From contig OZ024747.1 of NCBI GenBank assembly GCA_964016885.1, forward strand, positions 60,450,001-60,514,000: DNA of 64,000 bases. Direction: 5' to 3'. This document shows positions 23,053 to 64,000 of the stretch, piece by piece (the first letter of the stretch is position 1; each line of letters starts with the position of its first letter). A program made the position numbers and the translations under genes. The notes below the pieces were generated by a model. The model was not told the origin of the DNA and searched no databases. It saw nothing but the letters and a program-made list of their open reading frames with translations. This stretch comes from Eledone cirrhosa. Taxonomy: Eukaryota.

Positions 23053-23373
23053 CATCATCATTTTATGGCCACTTTTCCCTGCTTGCAAGGGTGGGACAGG
23101 AACTGATTCTGGCTTGATTTCTACAGCTGGATGCCCTTCCTAACACTAACCTCATTTACAGTGAGTGCTGGGTGCTTTTTTTGCCGTGGCACCTCCACGA
23201 CCACGTTACAGTGGAATGATAGGGACCCCAGTCCTGTCATCTCATTTCTACAGCTGAGTAAACTGGAGCAAGTGTCTTGCTCAAGGAAACAACACATCAC
23301 CCGGTCTGAGAATTGAACTCACAACCTTTCGATTGCAAGGCCAATGCTCTAACCACTAAGCCATGTGACTCCA
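23053..23373 (-). mobile_element. SINE family 1 (tRNA head, CORE, RTE-derived tail)
   Basis: Reverse complement of 28263-28610. Confidence 0.9.
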
Positions 23374-23511: not shown

Positions 23512-23614
23512 ATTGTTCTCAGTATGGTGAACTAACTATTATGTTACGCCTTCTACCTAACTTGTCCAATGGACTGAGTGCTCTACCACTACGGATATTA
23601 CCTTCCAGTGTTCT
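23512..23614 (+). mobile_element. Family H1 fragment (distal arm plus tail)
   Basis: Matches 61640-61740; lies between (TA)n and (CT)n(TA)n. Confidence 0.82.
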
Positions 23615-23616
23615 AC

Positions 23617-23693
<77 letters not shown>

Positions 23694-23928
23694 TGTAATA
23701 AACAACATAAGGCAATTATTTCATTTACCAGTGGTTTCTTAAAAGCAAAAAAAATTTTGCTTTCAATCATCAGAATGAAAAAATCCTGGTGTATTTATTG
23801 ACGTTGGATTTTAAAAACAAAAATGCAATCTATATGAAAGTGAGGCTGGAAAAGGAAGAAGGAAAGGAAAAATAAAAACATATATATATATATATATATA
23901 TAGAAGTGGTTACACAACAGTTAGTTCA

Positions 23929-23978
23929 CCATACCGAGAACAATTGTTTCCCCTTAGCGGATCCTCAGCTCGTAATGG
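23929..23978 (-). ncRNA. Minimal type I hammerhead ribozyme in an H1 element (23902-24075)
   Basis: Minus strand CCAT-TA-CGAG CTGAGGA TCC-GCTAA-GGG GAAA C-AATT-G TT^CTCG-GT-ATGG: full CUGANGA/GAAA/UH core, stems I-III, palindromic ACAATTGT stem III. Confidence 0.8.
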
Positions 23979-24072
23979 GCATGGTTATACGGAACATGAA
24001 GGACAACCGTACGGACGCGCATGCGCAGAAATTGGTCCCTTCACACAGGCAATACTAAAATGTGTGCAAGAG

Positions 24073-24125
<53 letters not shown>

Positions 24126-47446: not shown

Positions 47447-47641
47447 AGAATCAGGACCCCGAGGGCTGAGCTCCGGCTGTTTCGACAGCTACATCTGGAC
47501 ATTCAGATCTAGCTGTCGAAATGGCCAAGAGCTCAGCCTTCGGGGTCCTGAATCTTTTCATATTACCCACTCTACTACACCAAGTATCGAGTACTCTGGT
47601 GGTTATGGTGGTGCAGCTGGTATTTTACCACACCCTATCTG
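47441..47641 (+). mobile_element. Fold-back element H2, copy B (diverged)
   Basis: Arms 47441-47499 and 47502-47561; tail tacccactctactacaccaagtatcgagtactctggtg. Confidence 0.85.
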
Positions 47642-61150: not shown

Positions 61151-61155
<5 letters not shown>

Positions 61156-61348
61156 AGAAAGTATGACCTCGGCGACAGAGCTCAAGCCATTTCGGCGGCT
61201 ATTTCTGGAGTCCAGAAGTAGCCGTCGAGACGGCTTGAGCTCTGCCGTCGGGGTCATACTTTCTCCTATTACCCACTCTACTACCCTAAGTATTGAGTAC
61301 TCTGGTGCGTTATGGTCCATCTGGTTCCTTACCACAACTCCTCTGTTA
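61151..61348 (+). mobile_element. Fold-back element H2, copy C
   Basis: 59-bp arms 61151-61209 and 61211-61269; tail 61270-61348; (TA)n on both sides. Confidence 0.9.
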
Positions 61349-61436: not shown

Positions 61437-61507
<71 letters not shown>

Positions 61508-61510
61508 TAT

Positions 61511-61737
61511 AAGTGGTAACACAACAGTTAGTTCACCATACCTAGAACAATTGTTTCACCTTAGCGGATCCTCAGCTCGTAATGGGCATGGTTATCTGTA
61601 TAACCACGACCATTACTGAGGATCCGCTAAGGTGAAACAATTGTTCTTAGTATGGTGAACTAACTGTTGTGTTACCACTTCTACCTAACTCGTCCCATGG
61701 ACTGAGTGCTCTACCACTACGGATATTACCTTCCAGT

Positions 61738-61740
<3 letters not shown>
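61511..61740 (+). mobile_element. Fold-back element H1 with a hammerhead core in each arm
   Basis: About 80-bp arms spanning 61511-61680; CTGAGGA-TCCGCTAAGGT-GAAAC-AATT-GTT on plus (61616-61645) and on minus (61575-61546); tail 61681-61740. Confidence 0.88.
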
Positions 61741-61816
<76 letters not shown>

Positions 61817-62204: not shown

Positions 62205-64000
62205 TCATCATTATTGTCATCATCTTTTAATACCTCTCATCCATGCTTGTATGGTTTAGACAAGCTGTCACGTTATGAGGGGAGTCAGGTCAGGTGACCA
62301 GATCTTGCTCATCCAGTGGCTGGATACCCTTCCTAATGCCAACCACATTACGGTGTTGACTAGGTGCTTTTTACAGGGTGGAATTGTTACTTTTGTCATG
62401 TCACCAGCACAACCACCTTACAGGGTGGAATTGATACTTTTGTCATGACACCAGCACAACCACCTTACAGGGTGGAATTGTTACTTTTGTCATGTCACCA
62501 GCACAACCACCTTACAGGGTGGAATTGATACTTTTGTCATGTCACCAGCACAACCACCTTACAGGGTGGAATTGTTACTTTTGTCATGTCACCAGCACAA
62601 CCACCTTACAGGGTGGAATTGTTACTTTTGTCATGACACCAGCATAACCACCTTACAGGGTGGAATTGATACTTTTGTCATGTCACCAGCACAACCACCT
62701 TACAGGGTGGAATTGTTACTTTTGTCATGTCACCAGCACAACCACCTTACAGGGTGGAATTGATACTTTTGTCATGACACCAGCATAACCACCTTACAGG
62801 GTGGAATTGATACTTTTGTCATGTCACCAGCACAACCATCTTACAGGGTGGAATTGATACTTTTGTCATGACACCAGCATAACCACCTTACAGGGTGGAA
62901 TTGATACTTTTGTCATGTCACCAGCACAACCACCTTACAGGGTGGAATTGATACTTTTGTCATGACACCAGCACAACCATCTTACAGGGTGGAATTGATA
63001 CTTTTGTCATGACACCAGCACAACCATCTTACAGGGTGGAATTGTTACTTTTGTCATGTCACCAGCACAACCACCTTACAGGGTGGAATTGTTACTTTTG
63101 TCATGTCACCAGCACAACCACCTTACAGGGTGGAAATGTTACTTTTGTCATGTCACCAGCACAACCACCTTACTGGGTGGAATTGATACTTTTGTCATGA
63201 CACCAGCACAACCACCTTACTGGGTGGAATTGATACTTTTGTCATGACACCAGCACAACCACCTTACAGGGTGGAATTGATACTTTTGTCATGTCACCAG
63301 CACAACCACCTTACAGGGTGGAATTGATACTTTTGTCATGTCACCAGCACAACCACCTTACAGGGTGGAATTGATACTTTTGTCATGTCACCAGCACAAC
63401 CACCTTACAGGGTGGAATTGATACTTTTGTCATGTCACCAGCACAACCACCTTACAAGGTGGAAATGATGCTTTTTGTCATGTCACCAGCACAACCACCT
63501 TACAGGGTGGAATTGTTACTTTTGTCATGTCACCAGCACAACTATCTTTCAGAGATAAATGGATGCTTTTTTCATGGTCACCAGCACAATCACCTTACAG
63601 GGAGGTGAAGTGAGAGGAACTGGTATGCAAGTTGAACATGGACAAGGTGAGTGGGGAGGTCTAAGGGGAGATACTTAACTGCTGATGGGGTAGTCGTTAA
63701 TTTAGATTGGGGAAGATGTGTTAGGGGTGGGGAAGATTGGTATAGATCAGTGCCTTTTACATGACTGTTTTATCCTGTGATATGAGAAGATATTGCCAAT
63801 GGTTTCAATCTTGTGTCATCTCCTTTGATGGGTTTAATTTGGCGAAGTCAGCTTTTATCACTTCATCCTAAGCATTCATAGGTCTTCTTCTTCCATATTT
63901 TCCATCAACTTCAAGTTCCCTACACTTTTTTTTTATATAGCTGTCATCCTCCATACACACAACGTGTTCATACCACTGCTGTCTCCTCCCTGCATACTGC
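62205..64000 (-). mobile_element. Diverged RTE LINE 3' end containing an expanded minisatellite
   Basis: 63810-64000 minus reads RRQQWYEHVVCMEDDSYIKK..CRELEVDGKYGRRRP...DEVIKAD; the 3'UTR and tail lie at 62205-62370. Confidence 0.82.
62372..63600. repeat. 47-bp minisatellite, about 26 units
   Basis: Unit acagggtggaattgatacttttgtcatgtcaccagcacaaccacctt; acaggg at 62373 and 62420. Confidence 0.95.

What the first reader, a model, noticed from the sequence alone, without database searches (positions are those of the whole stretch)
61511..61740. H1 fold-back copy with hammerhead cores on both strands and a one-sided tail
Seen: a 170-nt near-perfect palindrome places CTGAGGA...GAAACAATTGTT on both strands, followed by a 60-nt tail on one side only, between (TA)n and (CT)n(TA)n. 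The plus-strand core has lost 4 nt of stem I. Established: Penelope insertions often show an inverted partial terminal repeat and a 3' tail extension. Inference: the fold-back records the integration mechanism. In a read-through transcript the long duplex would sequester the ribozyme and create dsRNA.
Basis: partly seen in the sequence, partly recalled or inferred. Interest (0 to 1): 0.7.

Follow-up and report, generated by a model that had tools for sequence, protein, structure and literature searches.

The report
Two-armed Penelope retrotransposon insertion
This short mirror-image repeat is one of thousands of broken copies of a known kind of jumping gene, and the fixed pairing of its two different ends suggests it was likely copied twice from one RNA, from both sides of a DNA cut.

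Summary
In detail: a 170-nt fold-back with hammerhead cores on both strands, a one-sided tail, and a 4-nt stem I deletion in the plus arm. It is a 5'-truncated copy of a Hydra-clade Penelope-like element (PLE). The parent unit is 2,577 bp and encodes a telomerase-like RT with a C-terminal GIY-YIG region. The 28-nt core occurs 2,655 times in the genome, and fold-backs are the majority form (17 of 26 and 18 of 29 end-selected insertions). Inverted copies, a one-sided tail, hammerheads and (TA)n targets are all published for PLEs, so the locus is ordinary. The added value is quantitative. Outer ends fall at two sites 66 nt apart, one of each, in 70 of 72 complete fold-backs (none A+A). The two arms share template alleles and often stop at the same RNA position. 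This best fits priming from both cut DNA ends on one RNA (about 60%, inferred). Both hammerheads here are damaged. The dsRNA claim is untested: no RNA run was available, and no editing scars were found in 81 fold-backs.

The parts
61440..61510 (.). Left (TA)n flank (target microsatellite)
   Evidence: sequence
61508..61595 (-). Arm 1: element 3' end in minus orientation, family positions -87 to 0, ending at site A (no tail); its last bases merge with the TA run
   Evidence: L001 1409-1496
61536..61585 (-). Type I hammerhead of arm 1: core from 61575, predicted cut between 61546 and 61545, one mismatch in stem I
   Evidence: cleavage inferred
61593..61600 (.). Head-to-head junction (stops at -87 and -92, 1-nt overlap), the hairpin loop
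61595..61683 (+). Arm 2: element 3' end in plus orientation, family positions -92 to 0
   Evidence: L001 1496-1643
61610..61655 (+). Type I hammerhead of arm 2: core from 61616, 4-nt deletion of core-proximal stem I, likely inactive
   Evidence: inactivity inferred
61684..61738 (+). Tail between site A and site B; in tandem parent copies it runs on into the 5' end of the next unit
61739..61776 (+). (CT)19, typical of one subfamily's B ends (11 of 16 copies with T at -10, 1 of 69 with A)
61777..61816 (.). Right (TA)n flank
   Evidence: sequence

Best explanation
This fold-back is a 5'-truncated insertion of an abundant Hydra-clade Penelope-like retrotransposon, and its two arms were likely copied from one RNA by reverse transcription primed from both ends of a cut in a (TA)n repeat. 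Shown: parent element, copy number, two fixed outer ends (A, and B 66 nt further 3'), one of each per fold-back, shared alleles between arms, variable inner junctions. Inferred: the RT-endonuclease, probably a dimer, cuts both strands; one DNA end primes at A and the other at B on the same uncleaved or re-ligated RNA; the B-primed enzyme displaces or catches up with the A-primed one; both often stall just upstream of the hammerhead; the two cDNA ends join through short microhomology and are filled in. The hammerhead is a passenger of the element's 3' repeat, duplicated by this process, and is decaying here.
For: Parent: L061 has repeat-ORF-repeat with a 2,577-bp unit. The modelled ORF (pLDDT 93) has TERT as 8 of the top 8 fold matches; Hydra motifs are present. 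End pairing: 70 of 72 complete fold-backs are A+B and 0 are A+A. In the set chosen by the core alone, 38 of 43 are A+B and the other 5 have a degraded end. Genome-wide exact ends number 2,972 (A) and 2,974 (B). Same template: position -10 agrees in 58 of 62 pairs (43.9 shuffled), -72 in 38 of 39 (24.6), and private variants are shared. Stops within 10 nt of each other: 25 of 64 against 12.6 shuffled. The A arm reaches >10 nt further upstream in 19 of 69, the B arm in 24 of 69, so the A arm cannot simply be a copy of the B cDNA. A target-like A at -2 is seen in 31 of 109 A ends and 2 of 115 internal A sites. (CT)n follows 7 of 72 A ends, though the internal site has none. In vitro, a Poseidon PLE cuts and extends both strands, starts at two sites bounding the tail, and is predicted to be a dimer (PMC11167929). 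A second family here gives 20 of 22 A+B.
Against: No experiment and no RNA data. About a third of insertions are solo arms (9 of 26, 11 of 29). Two of 72 are B+B (L064 includes an internal tandem tail; L200's arms are split by simple repeats). In PMC11167929 the start site did not differ between strands, and pairing within one event was not reported in the parts read. Two RNAs from one source locus, or gene conversion between arms, would also give shared alleles; arms differ by 4.8% within and 6.8% between insertions. Rank correlation of stop points is not significant (rho 0.11, p 0.38); only the excess of near-equal stops is. This copy's arms differ at -78, where both alleles are common. About 8 of the first 100 A-pattern hits end in the same letters as the 3 that proved internal, so the 1:1 count is approximate.
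Confidence: 0.6

Rival explanations
1. Self-priming or snap-back: one strand folds back and copies itself (on an antisense template, as proposed for Adineta Penelopes), and the endonuclease trims one arm at site A.
For: Proposed in PMC3846280 (passages); endonuclease-mediated resolution is suggested in PMC8557442. It explains shared alleles and near-equal stops.
Against: The A arm reaches further upstream in 19 of 69; in some (L137, L138, L149, L155) the B arm is the tail alone. A ends show target-like letters and (CT)n stutter, as expected of a priming site.
Confidence: 0.2
2. Two RNA molecules from the same source locus, or two repeats of one tandem or circular transcript, one per subunit, with an asymmetric complex fixing one start at A and one at B.
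For: Tandem copies exist (L061, L064, L066). 123 of 138 arms cross the predicted cleavage site, which fits a re-ligated circle as proposed in PMC4209133. It needs no strand displacement.
Against: It needs an added asymmetry to avoid A+A and B+B, and does not by itself explain near-equal stops.
Confidence: 0.15
3. A miniature DNA transposon (MITE) with terminal inverted repeats and a TA target duplication.
For: Palindromic, with at least 3 TA units on both sides in 56 of 72.
Against: Ends are asymmetric, the centre differs in each copy, arms run from a few nt to over 2 kb, and the sequence is the 3' end of an RT element.
Confidence: 0.01
4. A long-read fold-back or assembly artefact at this locus.
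For: This locus's own centre was not covered at 98% in 4 of 4 runs laid; contigs are filtered and the raw run is RAD-seq, so a hole proves nothing.
Against: The arms differ by 5 substitutions and a deletion, and only one has the tail. Short-read data from other samples show other junctions between the arms.
Confidence: 0.02
5. The fold-back is a functional unit: a dsRNA source or a ribozyme switch.
For: A very stable hairpin; on either strand the antisense arm would be transcribed before the ribozyme arm (sequence).
Against: Both ribozymes are mutated; 0 of 81 fold-backs show polarised A>G change, and this copy has 0 of 52 A>G.
Confidence: 0.04

Closest known systems
Hydra clade of Penelope-like elements, nearest Hydra-1_Obim (Craig et al. 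2021, PMC8557442; passages, section 11, supplement part 2 of 59 and searches seen)
   Same: Unit under 3 kb, C-terminal GIY-YIG, DKT, CxCX5C linker, no CCHH, CxxC and CxH, hammerhead near the 3' end with the U...U flanks seen in many Hydra motifs, (TA)n targets. Penelope-13_HM is listed with a 5' inverted copy. By eye the ORF is clearly similar to Hydra-1_Obim.
   Different: A different family: different hammerhead, RWR for RWK, a stem II of only 2 bp, and 3 of 3 motifs of ours absent from the supplement text. Hydra-1_Obim is listed without a pLTR, while this family has tandem repeats and thousands of copies.
Poseidon element PAc of Anolis (Frangieh et al. 2024, PMC11167929; parts 1-2 of 4 read, supplement search empty)
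   Same: Two RT start sites bound the tail; both target strands are cut and extended; AT-rich target; hammerhead not needed for insertion.
   Different: Other clade; the tail is given as 30-40 bp against 66 here; the parts read do not say that each insertion uses one site of each kind.
Adineta vaga Penelopes (Arkhipova et al. 2013, PMC3846280; passages seen)
   Same: [quoted passage not shown]
   Different: Few copies, 8-10 bp target duplications, and the inversion is explained by self-priming on an antisense template.
L1 twin priming (recalled; no paper read)
   Same: Both target ends prime on one RNA, giving a 5' inversion joined by microhomology.
   Different: In L1 the two pieces do not overlap and the second site is variable; here both sites are fixed and both arms hold the same sequence.
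Metazoan non-LTR retrozymes (bioRxiv 10.64898/2026.07.22.740005, part 1 of 5 read; its supplements not seen)
   Same: Type I hammerhead related to PLE repeats.
   Different: Retrozymes are non-coding tandem units; this is the truncated end of a coding element.

Membership tests
Hydra-clade PLE | Telomerase-related RT | tested here: met
   YRDD 42 times in 50 loci; 8 of the top 8 fold matches are TERT. Pfam and PDB sequence searches gave no relevant hit.
Hydra-clade PLE | C-terminal GIY-YIG endonuclease | tested here: met
   VIY...YVG motif 42 times, C-terminal to the RT; the top homologue carries PF01541 (name GIY-YIG recalled). No GIY-YIG structure among the fold matches listed.
Hydra-clade PLE | Short (<3 kb), single ORF | tested here: met
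   Unit 2,577 bp; longest open frame 722 aa among 150 scored hits; no fully intact copy seen.
Hydra-clade PLE | DKT motif | tested here: met
   SDKT 23 times.
Hydra-clade PLE | RWK motif | tested here: inconclusive
   9 of 9 read RWR, a conservative change, at the same place.
Hydra-clade PLE | CxCX5C linker; CCHH absent; CxxC and CxH around the E and N | tested here: met
   CSCRKPEAC, no Cys between VIY and YVG, CGLC and CPH.
Hydra-clade PLE | Hammerhead in the terminal repeat, and (TA)n insertion | tested here: met
Hydra-clade PLE | Placement in an RT phylogeny with reference Hydra elements | not tested
   Reference sequences were seen only in a paper's supplement and compared by eye.
Naiad PLE | N-terminal endonuclease, no canonical hammerhead | tested here: not met
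   The endonuclease is C-terminal and a hammerhead is present.
Type I hammerhead | Core CUGANGA / GAAA / UH with three stems | tested here: met
   Family form has all core bases; subfamily variation falls at N7, loop II and distal stem I. Stem II is 2 bp; stem III is short and palindromic.
Type I hammerhead | Rfam model match | tested here: not met
Type I hammerhead | Self-cleavage | not testable with these tools
   No RNA run listed; both copies at this locus have stem I defects.
MITE / DNA transposon | Symmetrical fixed TIRs and a constant body | tested here: not met
MITE / DNA transposon | Fixed-length target duplication | tested here: inconclusive
   Hidden in (TA)n; empty-site candidates for only 3 of 72.
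Non-LTR retrozyme | Non-coding tandem units, each with a hammerhead | tested here: not met
   The upstream sequence is the RT-EN ORF.

The most novel reading that the evidence does not exclude
Penelope-like elements integrate by obligate double priming on a single RNA: a dimer starts one cDNA at each of two fixed sites from the two ends of a break. The tail, the inverted repeat and the fold-back are then one signature of a retrotransposition mode distinct from LINE target-primed copying, with telomerase-like stutter at initiation.
Probability: 0.5. Interest if true: 0.65.

Novelty: new member of a known kind. Interest (0 to 1): 0.4.

Why it matters
The locus itself is a decaying copy among thousands. 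The family is a large natural record of PLE integration, whose mechanism and complex inverted/tandem products are called unresolved in PMC8557442 and PMC11167929. The strict A+B pairing, shared template and near-equal stops give sharp predictions for an in vitro system that already exists. In practice, these palindromes in (TA)n look like MITEs and could be mis-annotated as DNA transposons.

Tried and rejected
(1) My early idea that the arms come from two different templates was rejected: arms share alleles far above shuffle. (2) Hammerhead cleavage as the cause of truncation was rejected as a main cause: 5 of 138 arms stop at -40..-33, and 123 cross it; two junctions (L099, L105) do sit at the cut site, with a 10-nt stem I overlap. 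(3) A-to-I scars: none in 81 fold-backs. (4) Apparent A+A pair L188/L189: an internal site with a point change. (5) Whether the element makes its own (TA)n: one search was uninformative and its output was cut; one search gave 3 of 72 candidates, of which one (L147) suggests a TA run existed before insertion. (6) No RNA holder listed; this is no evidence on expression. (7) The locus's own junction was not covered in X1-X3 or X9. (8) Rfam, Pfam and PDB sequence searches were blank. (9) One search used a wrong reference and gave nothing; redone. (10) Literature: searches (listings only, apart from the five papers named) showed no paper stating one-of-each end pairing or twin priming for PLEs. Older subscription papers on the Penelope tail are outside the library, and bioRxiv supplements were not seen. 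(11) Earlier-findings look-ups near the locus and by sequence were empty.

Full report
OBSERVATION. The window at 61511-61680 is a near-perfect palindrome. As RNA the 230 nt fold at -139.7 kcal/mol, z -18.8, and 0 of 200 shuffles fold as well. A hammerhead core starts at 61616 (+) and at 61575 (-). The plus arm lacks 4 nt of stem I next to the core and has two further changes in the 3' strand; the minus arm has one private change in the third pair of stem I. A 55-nt unique tail follows the plus arm only, then (CT)19 and (TA)n; (TA)n lies on the left. Rfam does not recognise the motif.

WHAT IT IS. The genome has 3.0 Gb in 1,796 contigs. An octopus host is my inference, from the repeat landscape and the likeness to Hydra-1_Obim; no call names it. 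A 28-nt core word occurs 2,655 times, with 0 for the reversed control. Copies that are not folded back run upstream into an ORF. L061 holds repeat-ORF-repeat with a 2,577-bp unit, and in tandem copies the tail continues into the start of the next unit. The ORF has 946 homologues among 7,997 scored candidates; the 120 listed are mostly about 700 aa and 37-50% identical. Its model (pLDDT 93.3) matches telomerase RT best, 8 of the top 8. Motifs counted over 50 long loci match the Hydra clade as defined in section 11 of PMC8557442: DKT, CxCX5C, no CCHH, CxxC and CxH, with RWR in place of RWK. Many published Hydra hammerheads have the same U...U flanks on stem II, and several have U at the cut site. 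The family is related to Hydra-1_Obim by eye but has a different hammerhead, and three of its motifs are not in that supplement's text. No tree was built.

ANATOMY ACROSS COPIES. I number site A (arm end, window 61683) as 0 and site B (tail end) as +66. Over 230 loci plus the window there are 72 distinct complete fold-backs: 70 A+B, 0 A+A, 2 B+B. Of the two B+B, L064 includes an internal tandem tail and L200 has arms separated by simple repeats. L001-L030 were selected with the tail in the query, so the fairer test is the set chosen by the core alone: 38 of 43 head-to-head pairs are A+B and 5 have a degraded end. Independent choice of ends would give 38 of 38 with probability 4e-12. Counting by eye, and dropping 3 internal false hits and 1 duplicate, 17 of 26 A-selected insertions have a B partner and 9 are solo. 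Of 29 distinct B-selected insertions, 17 have an A partner, 1 a degraded partner and 11 are solo. Exact end words number 2,972 (A) and 2,974 (B); about 8% of the A hits may be internal. The fold-back is thus the family's commonest form.

TEMPLATE AND STOPS. Arms of one insertion share subfamily alleles: -10 in 58 of 62 (43.9 shuffled), -72 in 38 of 39 (24.6), -78 in 25 of 31 (10.7), and some variants are seen nowhere else. They differ by 4.8%, against 6.8% between insertions, so gene conversion or same-locus RNAs are not excluded. Stops lie within 10 nt of each other in 25 of 64 pairs against 12.6 shuffled (1 ambiguous pair and 5 that outran the reference were dropped from 70). The rank correlation is not significant (rho 0.11). 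In the end-selected set, 19 of 25 A arms and 18 of 25 B arms stop between -110 and -50, although B arms copy 66 nt more; position on the RNA, near the ribozyme, sets the stop. The A arm goes more than 10 nt further upstream in 19 of 69, the B arm in 24, and they are close in 26. Only 5 of 138 arms stop near the predicted cut and 123 cross it, so the template was mostly uncut or re-ligated, in line with PMC11167929. At A ends the -2 base is target-like in 31 of 109, against 2 of 115 at internal A sites. (CT)n follows 7 of 72 A ends, in 3 cases in mirror image at both ends, which a pre-existing compound repeat would not give. This copy has stops -87 and -92 with a 1-nt overlap.

MECHANISM (inferred). 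Both strands of a (TA)n target are cut. One end primes at A and the other at B on one RNA. The two cDNAs stall, often together, just past the hammerhead, then join by microhomology and are filled in. In vitro support from another clade: both strands cut and extended, two start sites bounding the tail, a predicted dimer (PMC11167929, parts 1-2 of 4). Self-priming on an antisense template (PMC3846280) fits shared alleles and equal stops, but fits poorly the cases where the B arm is the tail alone. Two RNAs from one locus, or a circle (PMC4209133, parts 1-2 of 4), remain possible. A neighbouring family repeats the rule, 20 of 22 A+B, with 1 A+A and 1 degraded. Earlier AI notes on other families of this genome reach a similar reading; they are not independent support.

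RIBOZYME AND dsRNA. Subfamily variation falls at N7, loop II and distal stem I, and core bases are 96-100% conserved; this suggests selection in the source elements. With a 2-bp stem II and a short palindromic stem III, the hammerhead fold is not the lowest-energy fold of a single arm (-10.7, -5.4 and -6.7 against -17.4, -16.2 and -17.4 kcal/mol), so activity may need a dimer or protein, as reported for other PLE motifs. In a read-through RNA of either strand the antisense arm comes first, so sequestration is expected. No RNA run was listed, and 0 of 81 fold-backs show polarised A>G change. The family is abundant in other samples, with other junctions. This locus's junction was not covered at 98% in 4 runs, which does not test it.

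VERDICT. A real and correctly described structure: a new family in the known Hydra clade, in a published configuration (PMC8557442 Fig. 2 legend; PMC3846280). Searches showed no paper that states the one-of-each pairing or double priming on one RNA; older subscription papers and bioRxiv supplements could bear on this. Membership in PLE: about 0.97. Mechanism: about 0.6. Interest 0.4.

Noticed in passing
window 61151-61346, 25387-25584, 47455-47632: A second, abundant fold-back family with a ~77-nt one-sided tail in (TA)n; 20 of 22 pairs are A+B. Longer copies (L015, L076, L152) show a hammerhead-like core of the U3-A8 type with a 3-bp stem I. No parent ORF found.
   Followed up: partly
window about 23690-23790, minus strand (core at 23773); also the flank of L008: A third hammerhead-like repeat with a long stem II, lying between two copies of the main family.
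   Followed up: no
window 23512-23618 (+) and 23901-24077 (-): Two more copies of the main family: a solo tailed arm with (CT)n, and a solo arm ending at site A.
   Followed up: partly
window from 61817: A tRNA-like SINE head begins right after the right (TA)n flank; a similar one lies at about 23230-23370 (-). Recognised by eye.
   Followed up: no
window 62372-63560 and about 2800-6000: Tandem arrays with a 44-nt unit.
   Followed up: no
L087 and L088 (G000:C1 35.17 and 36.10 Mb): The same insertion with the same flanks at two places, inverted: a segmental duplication or an assembly duplicate.
   Followed up: no
L099, L105: Junctions where one arm stops at the predicted hammerhead cut and joins the other through a 10-nt stem I overlap.
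   Followed up: partly
L091, L106, L163, L195, L201: Copies with internal deletions or extra template jumps inside the arms.
   Followed up: no
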